Of a stretch of 51,277 bases of DNA, positions 1 through 51,277 are shown one piece after another. The stretch comes from Escherichia phage tonnikala. The notes under the pieces were generated by a model. It did not search any database and was not told the origin of the DNA. It saw nothing but the letters and a program-made list of their open reading frames with translations. The stretch lies in the sequence record NC_049817.1, one strand, 5' to 3'. The position numbers and the translations under genes are program-made. Position 1 is the first letter of the stretch; every line of letters starts with the position of its first letter.

Positions 1-541
1 CATGCACCAGGTGACAAGGTAGCGCGTGAATGTATCGACCATCCTTGACGCCGCAATCATAATGACAATCTTCCGGCGGATATATCCCCTCATAAACGCT
101 TAAGGGTGTGCGATCGAATTTTAATGTTTTTGCCATCACTTTTTCGCAGCATTCATGACTTGCCTGTTTCCCGAACGAGTAGCCAGAAGAACGTGAAGCG
201 CGCTTGTTTGCTCTGATCCTGTAATCTTGTGGCACTTTGCCGAGGAAGCGGCCCAAAATGTTGATGGCCTCGCTGTAAGGTTCGCCAGTTAATTTCATTA
301 ACCAACCGATCCCTGTGTCGTTACCGCATACGTTGCAGATCGCGCCGCCGTCGCCCTCTTCATTTAGCTTATCAGTCCATCTAAAACGATCCTTACCGCC
401 GCAGTGTGGGCAAGGCTGATGCTTTTTGTTGAAAACATCGCTATGCAGTCCGCAAATGCTTTGTAGTGCTTCACGCCATAACCCCTTCATATATGGCAAA
501 ACATCTTCTTTCTGATAGGTCATAAAGTTTTCAGTATTCAT
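1..541 (-). CDS. DNA primase, N-terminal zinc-binding domain (partial; gene continues past window start)
   Basis: Open minus-strand frame from ATG at 539-541 to window edge, not in ORF track. Translation begins MNTENFMTYQ and has CPHCGG...CNVCG zinc-ribbon cysteines typical of primase-helicase zinc-binding domains. Confidence 0.6.
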   Translation of the reverse strand, partial: MNTENFMTYQKEDVLPYMKGLWREALQSICGLHSDVFNKKHQPCPHCGGKDRFRWTDKLNEEGDGGAICNVCGNDTGIGWLMKLTGEPYSEAINILGRFLGKVPQDYRIRANKRASRSSGYSFGKQASHECCEKVMAKTLKFDRTPLSVYEGIYPPEDCHYDCGVKDGRYIHALPCHLVH

Positions 542-595: not shown

Positions 596-1072
596 TTAGC
601 TATTCGTGCTGTTATCACCTTTGTAGAATCGTCCGCCTGGTTCGTAGTCTGAATTTTTGACTACGCGCAACATTTCGTATTTGTCGCAACGGGTAGTAAG
701 AGGCTTGCCGTTAGAATCAAACCGCAGATCTGGACGACAAAACGAGGCGCGGTATCCTTTGCATCCATTATATTTGTAGTCGTTATGCACCTTTTGTGCT
801 CCAGCGGCTGAAATCATACCACGCTTTCGCCATTGGTTAACAACTTGCTGAGATACGCGCAGACGTCGAGCCATAGCAGGAACGCCGCCGTAATACTCGA
901 TCAGAATGTCAAGGCGAGATTTCAGGCTTGCTTTTACCTCATCTCGCAGGATAAGAAATCCGGTTCGGTGTTTTCGTGGCTTTTTGTCTTTACCTCGTCG
1001 CGTTCCGTTGTTACCGTTAATAGTGCGCTTGTCGATCTCACCCGTAGATACTGCAATTCGTGCATCTTTCAT
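596..1072 (-). CDS. helix-turn-helix DNA-binding protein (Cro/YdaS-like)
   Basis: 158 aa ORF with HTH-like segment AMARRLRVSQQVVNQWRKRG and basic N-terminus; sits between primase and helicase. Confidence 0.5.
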   Translation of the reverse strand: MKDARIAVSTGEIDKRTINGNNGTRRGKDKKPRKHRTGFLILRDEVKASLKSRLDILIEYYGGVPAMARRLRVSQQVVNQWRKRGMISAAGAQKVHNDYKYNGCKGYRASFCRPDLRFDSNGKPLTTRCDKYEMLRVVKNSDYEPGGRFYKGDNSTNS

Positions 1073-1103: not shown

Positions 1104-1159
1104 AGTTTATTGTAATGAGTCTATTATATGCTCCAAATGGCATTTTTTAAAGGTTTAAG

Positions 1160-14994: not shown

Positions 14995-15013
14995 GTTTTA
15001 ACAAAAAGTGCTA
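14995..15013 (-). promoter_or_regulatory. conserved intergenic motif copy heading the leftward early operon
   Basis: Reverse complement TAGCACTTTTTGTTAAAAC, then 18 nt, then TACATT (-10-like), then RBS and ATG at 14936. Confidence 0.45.
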
Positions 15014-15036
15014 TTTGACGGTTAGCGCCAGGATTG

Positions 15037-15135
15037 TGATCGAAATAATCAGAAGTAATCATTCGTAATCGAATCACGTCAAAATGATGATTGCCTTTGC
15101 AAATTTGATGAGAAAAGTAATCACGTTTAATCATT
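15037..15135. repeat. iteron-like cluster of TAATC-containing short repeats
   Basis: TAATC pentamer five times in about 90 bp (GTAATCA, CGTAATC, GTAATCACG, TTAATCA), beside the divergent promoter hub. Confidence 0.35.
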
Positions 15136-15569
15136 GGTTGCAGGGGAGATAGTGAAACCTTCCCCTCTTGCCTCACTTTTCCGCCTGGCTGTCAGTGGCT
15201 GTTGTCTTTTGTTCGCCCCTGTTACCGATTTCAGGCGGCGTGTTTCCGCGAGGTTTTCCGGTGTAGCGAAAACGGAAAAAACAAAAAAAATCCTATATAA
15301 TACATTGAAAATAAAGATTATTTATTTATATATATCTATAATGTTTTCTTTTTGTTCTCACTGTTACAGTGCTTTTTGCTGGGTGTGGTGTGGTTGTGTG
15401 TTGGTATATATGGATAGTTGCGCGCGCGGCGGATTGCATATGTATATATACTTTTTCCGGCGGATTGCGTTAACAGCGTGAACAGAAAAATAACAGCCCT
15501 GAAATCAACAACTTGCGCATGATTTTGTAGTTTTTCGATATTGGTAACGTTTTGAATACAACAAAAACA

Positions 15570-15597
15570 TTGACACGCACCAAATAGCTTTTATAAT
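15570..15597 (+). promoter_or_regulatory. sigma-70-type promoter for rightward early operon
   Basis: TTGACA (15570-15575), 16-nt spacer, TATAAT (15592-15597); about 30 nt upstream of the first rightward gene. Confidence 0.55.
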
Positions 15598-30885: not shown

Positions 30886-30910
30886 CTAATAGCATAAAAA
30901 AACATTGCAC

Positions 30911-30928
30911 GTTTAACAAAAAGTGCTA
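30911..30928 (-). promoter_or_regulatory. conserved motif copy in reverse orientation upstream of capsid gene
   Basis: GTTTAACAAAAAGTGCTA on + strand, followed by terminator hairpin and capsid RBS. Confidence 0.4.
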
Positions 30929-30935
30929 TCATCTA

Positions 30936-34662: not shown

Positions 34663-34681
34663 CTTTTAACAAAAAGTGCTA
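34663..34681 (-). promoter_or_regulatory. conserved motif copy in reverse orientation abutting RBS of tail chaperone gene
   Basis: CTTTTAACAAAAAGTGCTA followed directly by AAGGAG and ATG at 34697. Confidence 0.4.
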
Positions 34682-34696
34682 TAAGGAGATCTTGAG

Positions 34697-44040: not shown

Positions 44041-44046
44041 AAAAAA

Positions 44047-44061
44047 GGGGGCGTAGCCCCC
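44047..44061. terminator. bidirectional terminator
   Basis: GGGGGC-GTA-GCCCCC hairpin flanked by A-run (5') and T-rich (3') between converging genes. Confidence 0.5.
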
Positions 44062-44068
44062 TTTAATT

Positions 44069-44685: not shown

Positions 44686-44964
44686 TCACCCCCAAAAAGT
44701 ATATATATATCTTGAATCAGATCCAGAAAGCCCACTCCATGTAACGGTGTCGCCACTTACCCCTAAGTTTGGCGCCCCAGGGTCGCCACCGCGCCAGGAA
44801 TTCATGCCAACATATATTGCTTTCAATGATTTACCTGGCGGCCTGTTTTGGTAAGTCTTGCTACCTGATGGCTGAGTGAATTTATCAAGAAAGAAAACAG
44901 GCGTTAAAAGTCCTGTAACTTCCCTCCCTCGATCGTCATATATTGCATAACCATATTGCGCCAT
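44686..44964 (-). CDS. hypothetical protein
   Basis: 92 aa, Gly-rich. Confidence 0.45.
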   Translation of the reverse strand: MAQYGYAIYDDRGREVTGLLTPVFFLDKFTQPSGSKTYQNRPPGKSLKAIYVGMNSWRGGDPGAPNLGVSGDTVTWSGLSGSDSRYIYTFWG

Positions 44965-45239
44965 TAATTACACCTCAAATCAATAAATTTACTTTCATTT
45001 TGCCAGCGGTTGATAAATTTAACTTCTTTATTGTCAACGCTCAACCTGTATTGCTTTTGGCTGAATCTGTTTTCGCGGACTGCATTAATTTTGACCTCAT
45101 GGAATCCGTTAACAGGGAATGTTTTAACGTTAAATTTTGCCGTGCAATCGATCTCTTTGAAGCCGCCAGTAGGCGACGCTGCGCATCCGGTCAGAGCGGC
45201 TACGGTGGCGATAACTGCGATTAATTTTTTCATCTTCAA
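44964..45239 (-). CDS. lipoprotein, candidate superinfection-exclusion protein
   Basis: Signal peptide plus lipobox (MKKLIAVIATVAALTGC); first gene of leftward operon next to tail-tip genes. Confidence 0.55.
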   Translation of the reverse strand: MKMKKLIAVIATVAALTGCAASPTGGFKEIDCTAKFNVKTFPVNGFHEVKINAVRENRFSQKQYRLSVDNKEVKFINRWQNESKFIDLRCN

Positions 45240-45288
45240 TACTCCTTAGTTGTCGTTGCCTGTAACTATACACGATCCGACAAGCGGC

Positions 45289-45306
45289 GTTTAGCAAAAA
45301 GTGCTA
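45289..45306 (-). promoter_or_regulatory. conserved motif copy (minus orientation, variant) heading leftward operon
   Basis: Reverse complement TAGCACTTTTTGCTAAAC, then 18 nt, then TATAGT, then AAGGAG RBS and ATG at 45239. Confidence 0.45.
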
Positions 45307-45677
45307 CTTGTTATTTTTTGTTTTTCGGTGTTATCGAATTTAAGACGGCGTAAATTTAGCTCAAATTTTAGCCAACATGAGAGCGATAAACAATCAATAA
45401 AATAGATATATACATATAAAATCAATAGTTTATTTATTTATGTATGTATATTTGTTTTTTCTTGTTATCTGTGTTTCTTGTGGTTTTGGTTGTTTGTGGT
45501 GATTTTTCTTTCTGAGTATCTGTATGTGCCATCATTCATGTGTATGTATATAATCCGGCGTATCTGAGAGAACAAAGGGAACAAGAAAAATAACACATAT
45601 TAATCATTGACTTACATTTCAAATTTGTTTTCTTGCAATCTAAGAACGTTTAGAAAACAGAAAAAACAAAACAACTA

Positions 45678-45705
45678 TTGACTAAATCAACCAAATGGCT
45701 ACAAT
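45678..45705 (+). promoter_or_regulatory. sigma-70-type promoter for rightward recombination operon
   Basis: TTGACT, 16-nt spacer, TACAAT; shares CCAAAT(A/G)GC spacer with the promoter at 15570. Confidence 0.5.
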
Positions 45706-45735
45706 GCACACACAAAGCAACAAGGAGCATCAAAG

Positions 45736-46791
45736 ATGAGTGATTTTAACGCCTACACTAGCGAAGAAATGAGCAATGAGCTTTATCATGATCCTAACGC
45801 GTGGACGGCTGAATACGTCAGCGGTTCCAGCTTGGCGGAGATTTACAGCACTTGCCCGGCGTACTGGAAGTACAAGCCTCGCCAGGAAACTAAGGCACTT
45901 GTTTTCGGTACGCAGTCGCATACCAATTTTGAAAGCAAGGAGTTATTCGAAAAAACATATCGCCGCGCACCGTCGCAGGATGATTTTAAAGATCTGATCA
46001 CAAGTCAAACGGCGTTAGCCTCAAAGCTGAAATCTTTTGGCCTGAAAGGTACAACGGGTAAGCAATACCCAGAATTGCTGGAAATGCTGTACAAGTGCGG
46101 TGAGGATCTCAATGTATGGTGGCTTATCGAAATGATGGCAGAATGCCAGGCCGCAGCGGACGGCGTGCAGTTAATCGACGCGAAAGATTATGATGCCTGT
46201 GTAGCGATGCGGCGCGTACTTGAGGCAATACCTGAGCATAATGCTTGCATGAATAGCCCAACCGCGCAGCGTGAAATGTCAATATTCGGGATCATCAATG
46301 GCGTAAAAGTTAAAGTGCGCCTTGATCACGTTGACGTAAACAAGGATGTAAAGGCCACAATCATTAACGGTTACGACGAAAAAGGCCGACCGATTTATGA
46401 AGAAGTCATCTATCCAGAAGCTGTGATTATCACTGACTATAAAACAACGGTTAGCGCAAATCCGGTTGACTTCCAGCGCCTGGCTTACAATCACGGCTAT
46501 TATCTCAAAATGGCTTTGCAGCATGATTTATTTAAAAAGGCGTATCCAGACGAGGAAAGGCCAGTAATTGTGAGATTGCTTGCTCAAGAGAAGAAAGAGC
46601 CTTACTTGCCGCTCGCATTCCGCATGAACATTGAGCAATTGAAGATCGGGCGTATCCAGTACATGAGCGTGATCAACAAGTTCAACGTTTGCCAACAGTT
46701 AGATGAATGGCCTTCGTATGCAAACGGGCAGCCAGAAATTGATCTTGATACTCCTGATTGGGTGCGCGCTCAATTCAGGCAGTATCTATGA
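45736..46791 (+). CDS. PD-(D/E)XK-family exonuclease (RecE/exonuclease VIII-like)
   Basis: 351 aa; D...E-x-K style core (VIITDYKTT); encoded just upstream of Erf and SSB. Confidence 0.5.
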   Translation: MSDFNAYTSEEMSNELYHDPNAWTAEYVSGSSLAEIYSTCPAYWKYKPRQETKALVFGTQSHTNFESKELFEKTYRRAPSQDDFKDLITSQTALASKLKSFGLKGTTGKQYPELLEMLYKCGEDLNVWWLIEMMAECQAAADGVQLIDAKDYDACVAMRRVLEAIPEHNACMNSPTAQREMSIFGIINGVKVKVRLDHVDVNKDVKATIINGYDEKGRPIYEEVIYPEAVIITDYKTTVSANPVDFQRLAYNHGYYLKMALQHDLFKKAYPDEERPVIVRLLAQEKKEPYLPLAFRMNIEQLKIGRIQYMSVINKFNVCQQLDEWPSYANGQPEIDLDTPDWVRAQFRQYL

Positions 46792-47124: not shown

Positions 47125-47781
<657 letters not shown>

Positions 47782-47786
47782 TAAAC

Positions 47787-47806
47787 GGGGCGCTTGCGCC
47801 CCTTTT
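47787..47806 (+). terminator. terminator-like hairpin
   Basis: GGGGCG-CTTG-CGCCCC then TTTTGTCA. Confidence 0.4.
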
Positions 47807-47824: not shown

Positions 47825-48271
47825 ATGCACGTTATTACAGGTGAGATCCGAAAAGAGCCAAAAGTAAAGCAAATGCCTAACGGTAGCACGCTATATGTTG
47901 TTGAGCTTTCCGAACGATATAAAGACCGTGAAGGCAATTGGCAGTATACAAACTATGTATTTTTCTTTAACGCGAAAACAGACGGCCTGAATGGTTGGTA
48001 TGCTGAGGCGTTCCAGGTAGGCAAGGTTATTTCTGTTTCCTGCGATACCTTGCGAGTTGAAACGCGAGAATACAACGGAAAGATTTACAGCACCGTGCAG
48101 CCTGGCGGATTTGCAAACTTGCTATTTAGCCAGCGTGGGGAAAGCCAGCAACAATATCAGCAGCGCACTCAAGGTGGATGGGGGCAACCACAACAGCAAC
48201 AAATCCCTCAACAGCAACCACAGCAAAGCAATCAGCCGCCGATTGACTTTGATGACGATATACCTTTCTGA
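47825..48271 (+). CDS. ssb: single-stranded DNA-binding protein
   Basis: OB-fold-like N-terminus, Gln/Pro-rich linker and acidic tip DFDDDIPF; AGGAG RBS before ATG at 47825. Confidence 0.8.
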   Translation: MHVITGEIRKEPKVKQMPNGSTLYVVELSERYKDREGNWQYTNYVFFFNAKTDGLNGWYAEAFQVGKVISVSCDTLRVETREYNGKIYSTVQPGGFANLLFSQRGESQQQYQQRTQGGWGQPQQQQIPQQQPQQSNQPPIDFDDDIPF

Positions 48272-50888: not shown

Positions 50889-51277
50889 TTATAGCAGTGA
50901 TTCGGGCTTGTAGAGTTTTCTTTCTACGCCCTGTTTAAAATTATCGTTAACAGGCATCATTATGTCAAGACCTCTTTCCTCTGCCGCGATTATCACATCA
51001 CGATCATCCTTCCGGCAGACTACGCGCATTCTTCTTTCTCCTTTATATCTATGCGCAACCATTTCAAGATTTGAAGGAGTAAAGCAAGCCCACACCTCTT
51101 GACCAGTTGATAAATGAACATGCTGGGAATCAACCCAATCAAGGCACAAATAGATCGTCTTATCCGTGCTACCTGTTTTAACAACAGATCCGCGCGTGTA
51201 GTCGCGAGCTAAAAACCAATCCTTTCCATCCTCATCAATGAAAAGCACGTTACACATTTCATCATCCACCAGGTGAC
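50889..51277 (-). CDS. hypothetical protein (5' end may lie beyond window)
   Basis: Open minus frame to window edge; track start at 51269 is GTG; internal ATG at 51255-51257. Confidence 0.4.
   Translation of the reverse strand, partial: HLVDDEMCNVLFIDEDGKDWFLARDYTRGSVVKTGSTDKTIYLCLDWVDSQHVHLSTGQEVWACFTPSNLEMVAHRYKGERRMRVVCRKDDRDVIIAAEERGLDIMMPVNDNFKQGVERKLYKPESLL

What the first reader, a model, noticed from the sequence alone, without database searches (positions are those of the whole stretch)
45250..45735. Second divergent-transcription hub, paralogous to the 15 kb hub
It separates a leftward three-gene module (lipoprotein first) from the rightward exonuclease-Erf-SSB operon. It contains TTTATTTATTTATGTATGTATA, a GT-rich tract (CTTGTGGTTTTGGTTGTTTGTGGTG), GAACAAGAAAAATAACAC and a TTGACT-16-TACAAT promoter whose spacer (CCAAATGGC) echoes the 15570 promoter (CCAAATAGC). 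Two matching hubs with like promoters suggest co-regulated early expression.
Basis: seen in the sequence. Interest (0 to 1): 0.6.

Follow-up and report, generated by a model that had tools for sequence, protein, structure and literature searches.

The report
Iteron-flanked unwinding element plus early promoter
This 490-base gap in a T1-like coliphage is one of two related copies of a conserved non-coding module, made of phased short repeats around the genome's most easily melted DNA and ending in a strong host-type early promoter; it is a plausible candidate for the still-unknown replication origins of T1-like phages.

Summary
The window is a Warwickvirus (T1-like, Drexlerviridae), 99.8% identical to phage FritzSarasin over the finding. 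The 45.3-45.7 kb region is a true paralogue of the 15.2-15.6 kb region (64% identity over 379 columns, E=9e-24; z=32 against shuffles with the promoter excluded).

The label "divergent-transcription hub" describes only the edges. The right edge is a sigma-70 promoter (TTGACT-16-TACAAT), conserved in all 43 relatives examined, including T1 and TLS. The left edge is a different promoter class: the known T1-like 21-nt direct repeat. It is lineage-specific, because in TLS the same module sits between two same-strand genes.

The roughly 370 bp in between evolves far more slowly than synonymous sites. It does not code, is not a structured RNA and has no second conserved promoter. It holds three triplets of TGTT/AACA repeats at 9-11 bp phasing, arranged around a 60-bp AT core. 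The two cores are the two least stable stretches of the genome, here and in T1.

The repeat word changes with phage lineage. Some copies (GTGAACAG) resemble the phage P4 ori/crr repeat TGTTCACC, and the phage primase is homologous to P4 alpha. My best reading is an origin-type element coupled to an early promoter. This is not proven.

The parts
44964..45233 (-). Cor-like lipoprotein gene, first gene of the leftward three-gene module (context)
   Evidence: ORF; FritzSarasin annotation; PHROG phrog_1119 (Cor superinfection exclusion), E=1.2e-7.
45265..45309 (-). Leftward promoter of the 21-nt direct-repeat (DR) class: DR at 45290-45309 and -10 TATAGT at 45265-45270. The DR starts 76 nt upstream of the ATG at 45233.
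   Evidence: Consensus aaATAGCACnnnTTGnTAAAA and the ~76-nt distance to the start codon are from PMC11447400.
45308..45335 (+). Repeat triplet 1: TGTT at 45309, 45319 and 45329 (10-bp phasing)
   Evidence: TTTTGTT (45316-22) and TGTT (45329-32) are conserved in at least 80% of 19 sequences from several genera.
45391..45452 (.). AT core (about 89% A+T), candidate DNA-unwinding element
   Evidence: One of the two least stable 60-bp and 100-bp stretches of the genome (z=4.9; next best 3.2). Sequence features are shared by all hubs, including T1. No more hairpin potential than shuffles.
45452..45501 (+). Repeat triplet 2 (TGTT at 45453, 45463, 45472, plus 45491), running into the GT-rich tract 45477-45501
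   Evidence: The GT-rich tract is present in Tempevirinae but not clearly in T1.
45536..45566 (+). TATA-rich block followed by CCGGCGTAT. It includes a sigma-70-like site (GTGCCA-17-TATAAT, 45526-45554) that relatives do not conserve.
45568..45597 (+). Repeat triplet 3 in the inverted orientation: AACA at 45571, 45580 and 45592
   Evidence: GAACAA (45570-75) is conserved across genera.
45601..45613 (+). IHF-like site AATCATTGACTTA (one mismatch to WATCAANNNNTTR). The homologous position in the 15 kb hub (15503-15515) is an exact match.
   Evidence: ATCA and ACTTA conserved. Weak evidence: the window holds 5 exact matches against 4.4 expected.
45653..45675 (+). A-rich tract with AACA at 45656, 45665 and 45670, directly upstream of the -35 (UP-element-like)
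   Evidence: The UP-element reading is inference.
45678..45705 (+). Sigma-70 early promoter TTGACT-16-TACAAT. Inferred start near 45712, RBS AAGGAG at 45722-45727, exonuclease ATG at 45736.
   Evidence: Conserved with a 16-nt spacer 28-34 nt before the start codon in most relatives (48 nt in one; none found in 2019SD1). Equivalent to TLS P51.
15190..15597 (+). Paralogous module: TGTT at 15200/15210/15220; AT core 15283-15345; TGTT at 15342/15353/15362; GT tract about 15378-15406; AACA at 15472/15481/15492; IHF-like 15503-15515; promoter TTGACA-16-TATAAT at 15570-15597
14995..15014 (-). DR-class leftward promoter element at the left edge of the 15 kb module

Best explanation
The interval is a composite of three elements.

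(1) Left edge. A leftward promoter of the T1-like 21-nt direct-repeat class drives the Cor-like module. It is a lineage-specific addition.

(2) Right edge. A host sigma-70 early promoter, preceded by an A-rich tract, drives exonuclease-Erf-SSB.

(3) The roughly 370 bp between them. This is one of two paralogous copies of an origin-type element. Three triplets of short repeats (core TGTT(A/C)Y, 9-11 bp apart) are arranged with the first two in one orientation on either side of a 60-bp AT core. That core is the most easily melted DNA in the genome. The third triplet is inverted, about 100 bp further on.

Proposed mechanism (inferred). A phage-encoded DNA-binding protein coats the phased repeats. 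Candidates are the winged-helix C-terminus of the MCM-like DUF3987 helicase or the Cro-like HTH protein encoded next to the primase. Negative supercoiling behind RNA polymerase leaving the adjacent early promoter helps the AT core open. The helicase and the P4-alpha-like primase then start replication. The two copies, 30 kb apart, would act as two origins or as an ori/crr-type pair as in phage P4.

What is shown: paralogy, purifying selection, repeat layout, extreme helical instability, promoter conservation, primase homology to P4 alpha. What is inferred: protein binding, unwinding, initiation.
For: Paralogy: E=9e-24, z=32. The same pair of modules exists in TLS and T1.

Constraint: module identity between genera is 61-73%, against 36-48% at four-fold sites of the adjacent exonuclease gene.

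Conserved stretches: the runs conserved across genera are the TGTT/AACA cores, parts of the AT core, ATCA..ACTTA, and the -35 and -10.

Repeat layout: phased triplets in both modules.

Instability: the AT cores are the two least stable 60-bp and 100-bp stretches, in the window (z=4.9 and 4.9, next 3.2) and in T1 (z=5.8 and 5.5, next 3.8).

Lineage-specific repeats: T1 uses TGTAACA, with 6 of 6 genomic copies inside the hubs, which make up 2.5% of the genome. Other lineages use GATTACA or TGTATAC. This points to a phage-encoded binder rather than a host protein.

P4 comparison: the P4 RefSeq record annotates ori and crr with 16 'type 1 repeats', mostly TGTTCACC, in phased arrays such as GGTGAACAGTGGTGAACAGACGGTGAACAG next to an AT-rich stretch. 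The window has CGTGAACAGA and TLS has CGTGAACACGTGAACAGC. The phage primase matches residues 20-263 of P4 alpha at E=1e-15 and carries Zn_Ribbon_Prim.

Literature: DUF3987 helicases are MCM-like and have a C-terminal winged helix (PMC4889955). [quoted passage not shown] No origin is known for T1-like phages (PMC11447400; PMC7718038).

Promoter.
Against: There are no replication or binding data.

The helicase C-terminal domain shows no detectable sequence similarity to the P4 alpha origin-binding region (hhalign probability 0.3%; no PDB hit). It is not hypervariable between lineages that use different repeats. My single-sequence model of it is low-confidence (pLDDT 47).

The Tempevirinae repeat core is short and T/A-rich, so its enrichment in the hubs is only 5-8 fold.

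The module always travels with an early promoter at a conserved register. That fits a purely transcriptional role equally well.

GC skew follows gene orientation and cannot tell the two readings apart.

Only the AT core aligns significantly between the two T1 hubs (E=5e-11).
Confidence: 0.45

Rival explanations
1. The region is purely an early-transcription control region, which is an extension of the first reader's view. The repeat arrays are operators or enhancer-like sites for a phage regulator, for example the Cro-like HTH protein encoded at 596-1072(-). That regulator would switch the two early operons on or off together, as lambda OL/PL and OR/PR are paralogous control regions. The AT core would only be upstream architecture.
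For: The module is always attached to one of the few sigma-70 promoters, at a conserved register. A Cro-like HTH protein is encoded by the phage (PDB 3bd1 and 5w8y matches; phrog_2856 'transcriptional regulator'), and its recognition helix differs between T1, TLS and the window. All four copies of CCAAATRGC in the window lie inside sigma-70-like promoter spacers.
Against: The conserved repeats lie 90-400 bp upstream and do not overlap the -35 or -10. The regulator's own promoter region and the ssb promoter have no such array. This model does not explain why the cores are the two least stable sites of the genome in two distant phages. The window and TLS have similar repeats but different recognition helices. 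CCAAATRGC is not conserved beyond Warwickvirus at the ssb promoter or in the 15 kb module.
Confidence: 0.3
2. The region is an upstream activating region built from host architectural proteins and intrinsic DNA shape (IHF or Fis sites, phased T/A tracts, H-NS-prone AT DNA). It boosts or insulates the early promoter, and no phage protein is involved.
For: There are conserved IHF-like ATCA..CTTA elements. The T- and A-rich repeats are phased at about 10 bp, and an A-tract sits next to the -35.
Against: The repeat word changes with phage lineage although the hosts are the same enterobacteria. Exact IHF consensus matches in the window are no more frequent than chance (5 against 4.4). The AT core lies about 270-330 bp from the start site, too far for direct RNA polymerase contact.
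Confidence: 0.12
3. The region encodes a product: a non-coding RNA or one or more small proteins. Some GenBank annotations place up to three or four 'hypothetical proteins' here.
For: Several records annotate small ORFs under the match. The plus-strand RNA fold is slightly better than shuffles (z=-2.4).
Against: The ORFs differ in position and frame between relatives and are interrupted by stops, and the alignment has many 1-2-nt indels. There is no Rfam match at the gathering threshold over the whole window or at E<=1 over the finding. The minus-strand fold gives z=-1.0. No conserved internal promoter exists to make such an RNA. The weak fold signal comes from the left TGTT arrays pairing with the right AACA arrays.
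Confidence: 0.04
4. The region is a packaging or recombination signal, such as a pac-related site, a Chi-like GT tract or a cruciform.
For: In TLS and T1 the deposited genome start (pac, or the terminal repeat) lies about 100-200 bp to the left of the 15 kb type of module. The tract is GT-rich.
Against: Only one of the two copies lies near pac. Neither GT-rich tract quoted from the two hubs is an exact Chi octamer GCTGGTGG. The AT cores have no more hairpin potential than shuffles (z from -1.3 to +1.5). The GT tract is not clearly present in T1.
Confidence: 0.05

Closest known systems
Satellite phage P4 ori and crr (two cis-acting replication regions carrying 'type 1' 8-bp repeats)
   Same: Two separate non-coding regions each carry arrays of a short repeat in both orientations, partly as tandem triplets at 10-11 bp spacing next to AT-rich DNA. 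Some T1-like copies (GTGAACAG) match 7 of 8 bases of TGTTCACC. P4 ori also lies between divergent operons. The primase is homologous to the N-terminal part of P4 alpha (E=1e-15).
   Different: P4 alpha is one protein combining primase, SF3 helicase and a winged-helix origin binder (PMC2777425). The T1-like phage has a separate primase and an MCM-like DUF3987 helicase, and I found no protein with detectable similarity to the alpha origin-binding domain. The T1-like copies are true paralogues fused to early promoters and lie 30 kb apart. Most Tempevirinae repeats are degenerate (TGTTAT/TGTTTC), and T1 uses TGTAACA. In my scan, P4 ori is not among the least stable DNA of P4.
PICI / SaPI replication origins
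   Same: Two sets of iterons flank an AT-rich presumed melting site, next to primase and helicase-type initiator genes (PMC6092414).
   Different: Those origins are single-copy and lie beside their rep gene. Here there are two copies, far from the helicase and primase genes, and each is joined to an early promoter.
TLS predicted promoters P01 and P51, and the 21-nt direct repeats (Kropinski/Misra reannotation, PMC11447400)
   Same: The rightward promoters of both modules are the counterparts of TLS P01 and P51. The left-edge element is a copy of the published repeat aaATAGCACnnnTTGnTAAAA, 76 nt upstream of the start codon.
   Different: That paper does not describe the paralogous upstream modules, states that it found no iteron-like repeats, and leaves the origin unidentified.
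Lambda early control regions OL/PL and OR/PR
   Same: Two paralogous non-coding control regions each drive an early operon, and the phage encodes a Cro-like HTH protein.
   Different: Lambda operators are 17-bp palindromes that overlap the promoter hexamers. Here the repeats are 5-8 bp, phased, mostly 90-400 bp upstream, and surround an AT core.
Promoter-linked phage origins (T7 primary origin, T4 oriF/oriG, transcriptional activation of lambda ori); recalled from textbook knowledge, not tested here
   Same: A promoter is coupled to an AT-rich unwinding element.
   Different: In T7 and T4 the promoter reads into the unwinding element to make a primer. Here the conserved promoter reads away from it.

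Membership tests
Sigma-70 (housekeeping) promoter | -35 and -10 hexamers close to TTGACA and TATAAT, with a 16-18 nt spacer | tested here: met
   TTGACT-16-TACAAT at 45678-45705, 10 of 12 matches; sixth-best plus-strand site in the genome by my scoring matrix.
Sigma-70 (housekeeping) promoter | Conserved position and spacing in relatives | tested here: met
   TTGAC(T/A)-16-TAnAAT lies 28-34 nt before the start codon in most sequences scanned, including T1; exceptions are 48 nt in L029 and no site found in 2019SD1. It is invariant in the alignment.
Sigma-70 (housekeeping) promoter | Transcription starts there in vivo, early in infection | not testable with these tools
   I found no transcript-start data for T1-like phages.
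T1-like 21-nt direct repeat (DR) element | Consensus aaATAGCACnnnTTGnTAAAA, intergenic, in the direction of transcription, about 76 nt upstream of a start codon | tested here: met
   45290-45309(-) reads AAGTAGCACTTTTTGCTAAA. It starts 76 nt upstream of the ATG at 45233 and is followed at the usual distance by TATAGT.
Iteron-type replication origin (P4 ori/crr, PICI/SaPI type) | Arrays of a short repeat, in tandem with helical phasing | tested here: met
   Three triplets at 9-11 bp spacing in each module. Their cores are the stretches conserved across genera. In T1 all 6 TGTAACA copies lie in the hubs.
Iteron-type replication origin (P4 ori/crr, PICI/SaPI type) | Adjacent AT-rich, easily melted DNA-unwinding element | tested here: met
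   The AT cores are the two least stable 60-bp and 100-bp stretches of the genome, in the window and in T1.
Iteron-type replication origin (P4 ori/crr, PICI/SaPI type) | An initiator encoded by the element, with a DNA-binding domain specific for the repeats | tested here: inconclusive
   Candidates exist: the DUF3987 helicase, with a C-terminal winged helix according to PMC4889955, and a Cro-like HTH protein. There is no similarity to the P4 alpha origin binder, no clear co-variation with the repeats, and the structure model is low-confidence.
Iteron-type replication origin (P4 ori/crr, PICI/SaPI type) | Replication initiates there, and the element is required in cis | not testable with these tools
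   Needs marker-frequency analysis, 2D gels or a plasmid origin assay.
P4 ori/crr specifically | Type 1 repeat TGTTCACC | tested here: inconclusive
   The P4 record gives 16 repeats, mostly TGTTCACC. The 15 kb module has TGTTCAC once (15480 region), and TLS has it twice in tandem. The finding's own copies are GAACAA and TAACAC only.
Lambda-type operator array | Palindromic operators that overlap the promoter hexamers | tested here: not met
   The repeats are asymmetric and upstream of -50. Only CCAAATGGC lies in the spacer, and it is not conserved across genera in the 15 kb module.
Known RNA family or structured ncRNA | Rfam match, or a fold clearly better than shuffles | tested here: not met
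   No Rfam match; z=-2.4 and -1.0.

The most novel reading that the evidence does not exclude
T1-like phages (Drexlerviridae) replicate from a bipartite, P4-like pair of origin elements. These are two paralogous modules of repeats and an unwinding element about 30 kb apart. Each is joined at a fixed register to one of the very few host-polymerase early promoters, so that early transcription licenses unwinding. The lineage-specific repeats co-evolve with a phage initiator. If so, these would be the first candidate origins for the T1 family.
Probability: 0.35. Interest if true: 0.7.

Novelty: new member of a known kind. Interest (0 to 1): 0.6.

Why it matters
T1 is one of the classical T phages, yet the two genome papers I read state that no origin could be found for T1-like phages (PMC11447400, PMC7718038). 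This analysis gives two precise, testable candidate sites per genome. It also gives a conserved repeat layout, and a link to the P4 alpha-type primase and the P4 ori/crr repeats.

It further separates two promoter classes in these phages: a few sigma-70 early promoters, and many promoters built on the 21-nt direct repeat. That bears directly on the open question, raised in the TLS paper, of what the 21-nt repeats do.

If the origin reading is wrong, the region is still a strongly constrained early-promoter control module that deserves mapping.

Tried and rejected
1. A second conserved sigma-70 promoter inside the hub. The site at 45526-45554 scores well, but it is found only in the window, not in the 15 other hub B sequences scanned.

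2. A cruciform or palindrome in the AT core. DNA folds of eight cores are no better than shuffles.

3. A structured ncRNA. No Rfam hit and weak z-scores.

4. Small proteins. The ORFs are not conserved.

5. CCAAATRGC as a shared operator. All 4 copies lie in promoter spacers. However, the count is not significant on its own (8 of 100 shuffles reach 4), and the motif is not conserved across genera.

6. GC skew as an origin marker. It is confounded by gene orientation.

7. Exact IHF consensus. No more frequent than chance genome-wide.

8. Similarity of the helicase C-terminus, the primase C-terminus or the HTH protein to the P4 alpha origin-binding domain. None was detected.

9. Co-variation of the helicase C-terminus with repeat type. 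Not clear.

10. A single-sequence structure of the helicase C-terminus. pLDDT was 47, so I ran no fold search. Only the order of helices and strands is consistent with a winged helix.

11. The idea that the DR-binding factor also binds the hub repeats. This is unlikely, because the one T1 DR copy examined closely resembles the window and TLS consensus while T1 uses different hub repeats.

12. Literature searches for transcript starts or an origin in T1-like phages found nothing.

Full report
WHAT THE WINDOW IS. Over 45240-45740 the window is 99.8% identical to Escherichia phage FritzSarasin (Bas04; Drexlerviridae, Tempevirinae, Warwickvirus). The primase gene runs off the window's end and continues at its start. 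The window is therefore a complete, circularly permuted T1-like genome.

OBSERVATION. The promoter TTGACT-16-TACAAT is at 45678-45705. Its partner TTGACA-16-TATAAT is at 15570-15597. To the left lies a three-gene minus-strand module beginning with a Cor-like lipoprotein. To the right lie exonuclease, an 85-aa ORF, Erf and SSB.

The paralogy is real. blastn aligns 45309-45668 with 15200-15569 at 64% identity over 379 columns, E=9e-24, and finds no third copy. Without the promoter and the 21-nt repeat, the local score is 69 against 12.7 +/- 1.8 for dinucleotide shuffles (z=32).

CONSERVATION. The module upstream of the exonuclease gene is recognisable in most of the 43 IMG/VR loci of T1-like phages, including TLS, and more weakly in T1. 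The 15 kb type of module is present in W011D, PeterMerian, pSf-1, phSE-2, 2019SD1 and TLS. TLS and T1 each have both modules.

Between genera the module keeps 61-73% identity. Four-fold degenerate sites of the adjacent exonuclease gene keep only 36-48%. The whole non-coding stretch is therefore under purifying selection.

THE EDGES. The right edge is the only sigma-70 promoter that is conserved. It keeps a fixed 16-nt spacer and lies 28-34 nt before the start codon in most relatives scanned, including T1. The exceptions are one locus at 48 nt and 2019SD1, where no site was found. It corresponds to TLS P51, and the 15 kb promoter corresponds to TLS P01. These are two of only three intergenic sigma-70 promoters reported for TLS (PMC11447400). 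By my scoring matrix the hub promoters rank among the best sigma-70-like sites in the window.

The left edge is different. At 45290-45309(-) sits a copy of the published T1-like 21-nt direct repeat, 76 nt from the start codon, as that paper describes. I find that 16 of the 18 copies matching the search pattern are followed, 18 nt after the ...AAAAC end of the repeat, by a -10-like (C/T)ATAAT. That places the repeat around -41, the position of class II activator sites. The activator reading is my inference.

In TLS the homologous module sits between two plus-strand genes, tspJ and recE. In T1 the leftward Cor gene has an ordinary sigma-70-like promoter. Divergent transcription is therefore not what defines the module.

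THE MIDDLE. I excluded several readings of the central region:
- The ORFs inside it are not conserved.
- Rfam finds nothing, and the RNA folds are unremarkable.
- The good-looking site at 45526-45554 is found only in the window, not in the 15 other hub B sequences scanned.
- The AT core is not a conserved palindrome.

What is conserved is a pattern:
- TGTT at 45309, 45319 and 45329.
- An AT core at 45391-45452.
- TGTT at 45453, 45463 and 45472, running into the GT-rich tract.
- After about 100 bp, AACA at 45571, 45580 and 45592 in the opposite orientation.
- An IHF-like ATCA..ACTTA.
- An A-rich tract with further AACA copies.
- The promoter.

The 15 kb module has the same layout: TGTT at 15200/15210/15220, core at 15283-15345, TGTT at 15342/15353/15362, and AACA at 15472/15481/15492. 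In a 19-sequence alignment spanning several genera, the runs conserved in at least 80% of sequences are exactly these cores, parts of the AT core, ATCA..ACTTA, and the -35 and -10.

TWO FURTHER FACTS.

First, nearest-neighbour stability. The two AT cores are the two least stable 60-bp and 100-bp stretches of the whole genome in the window (z=4.9 and 4.9; next best 3.2). The same holds in T1 (z=5.8 and 5.5; next best 3.8).

Second, the repeat word differs by lineage while the layout stays the same. T1 uses TGTAACA, and all six genomic copies lie in the hubs, which make up 2.5% of the genome. One other lineage uses GATTACA and another TGTATAC/TGTAACC. Tempevirinae use TGTT(A/C)Y. These phages infect the same enterobacteria, so a phage-encoded binder is more likely than a host protein.

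COMPARISON WITH P4. The P4 RefSeq record annotates ori and crr, two cis-acting regions. Together they carry 16 'type 1 repeats', mostly TGTTCACC, partly as tandem triplets at 10-11 bp spacing next to an AT-rich stretch. P4 ori lies between divergent operons.

The 15 kb module contains CGTGAACAGA, and the TLS module contains CGTGAACACGTGAACAGC. The phage primase aligns with residues 20-263 of P4 alpha (E=1e-15) and has the primase-helicase zinc ribbon.

The phage also encodes a DUF3987 helicase. The literature describes this family as MCM-like with a C-terminal winged helix (PMC4889955). A Cro-like HTH protein is encoded next to the primase. E. coli PICI origins have two iteron sets flanking an AT-rich region (PMC6092414).

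I could not identify the binder. No protein resembles the P4 alpha origin-binding domain by sequence. The helicase C-terminus is only moderately more divergent than its core. My structure model is low-confidence.

INTERPRETATION. The promoter part I hold with high confidence (about 0.85). For the middle, the best-supported reading is an origin-type element: phased repeats around an unwinding element, present twice, coupled to early transcription. I give this about 0.45.

The main rival, at about 0.3, is a purely transcriptional control region bound by a phage regulator. It explains the constant association with early promoters. It does not explain the extreme instability of the cores or the distance of the repeats from the promoter.

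Host-factor architecture, an RNA or peptide product, and packaging or recombination signals are less likely, for the reasons given under the rivals.

NOVELTY. The promoters and the 21-nt repeats are published. The paralogous repeat/AT-core modules are not described in the papers I could read. The TLS paper says it found no iteron-like repeats, and both the TLS and the SU57 papers report that no origin was identified. If the origin reading holds, this is a new member of the iteron-origin kind, with unusual features: two true paralogues, each fused to an early promoter.

Noticed in passing
window, pattern-matching DR copies, e.g. 3575, 4646, 16364, 16827, 18043, 19275, 22071 (+); 10945, 12981, 13708, 15012, 45305 (-): 16 of the 18 copies of the published 21-nt direct repeat that match the search pattern are followed, 18 nt after the ...AAAAC end, by a -10-like (C/T)ATAAT, TATAGT or similar hexamer. 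This puts the repeat at about -51 to -31 (centre about -41), the position of class II activator sites. The repeats therefore look like the upstream half of a phage-specific promoter class, which would answer the open question posed in the TLS paper.
   Followed up: partly
window 1133-1141, 15580-15588, 45691-45699, 47734-47742: All four exact copies of CCAAATRGC in the genome lie inside sigma-70-like promoter spacers: the promoter in the regulator/helicase divergent region, the two hub promoters and the ssb promoter. TLS P57 carries the reverse complement (GCCATTTG). The count alone is not significant, and the motif is not conserved across genera.
   Followed up: partly
window 47726-47802: A strong sigma-70-like site (TTGACA-18-TAAAAT) lies inside the 3' end of erf. 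It is followed by the hairpin GGGGCGCTTGCGCCCC plus a T run, just before ssb (ATG at 47825). The -35 and -10 positions are kept in all relatives, including T1, but they overlap the conserved Erf C-terminal codons.
   Followed up: partly
window 15015-15190: The 15 kb intergenic region has an extra left part absent from the 45 kb copy. It is rich in GATT/AATC and TGTGAT motifs. In TLS the deposited genome starts (pac, AGATTT...) about 100 bp to the left of the homologous module, and in T1 the terminal repeat starts about 200 bp to the left of the AT core. This stretch may therefore be the pac region.
   Followed up: partly
window 30910-30929(-) and 34663-34682(-): Two DR copies point leftward inside the plus-strand structural gene block. 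The one at 34.6 kb has a -10-like TAGATT at the usual distance. They could be antisense promoters or could serve small unannotated minus-strand ORFs.
   Followed up: no
window 596-1072(-): The 158-aa 'transcriptional regulator' has a Cro-like HTH whose recognition helix differs between the window, TLS and T1. Its N-terminal segment STGEIDKR.INGNNG.RRGKD.K.R is almost invariant between these three phages.
   Followed up: partly
window 50889-51277 joined to 1-541 (-): The primase gene is split by the window ends, so the window is a whole circularly permuted genome.
   Followed up: yes
GenBank MG0656xx records (e.g. H103, H106, H108): Eighteen records named 'Campylobacter phage', with host Campylobacter jejuni, carry this T1-like module. 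The five listed are about 73-75% identical to the window over about 93% of the query, like Hanrivervirus coliphages. They look like mislabelled or contaminating T1-like phages.
   Followed up: no
L044 / L054 (Shigella phage 2019SD1): In this phage the right half of the 45 kb type of module (inverted repeats and promoter) is replaced, together with a divergent exonuclease allele. The left half and the AT core are kept.
   Followed up: no
window 44044-44064: The hairpin AAAGGGGGCGTAGCCCCCTTT scores as a terminator on both strands. It lies between the J-like tail gene and the end of the leftward Cor module.
   Followed up: no
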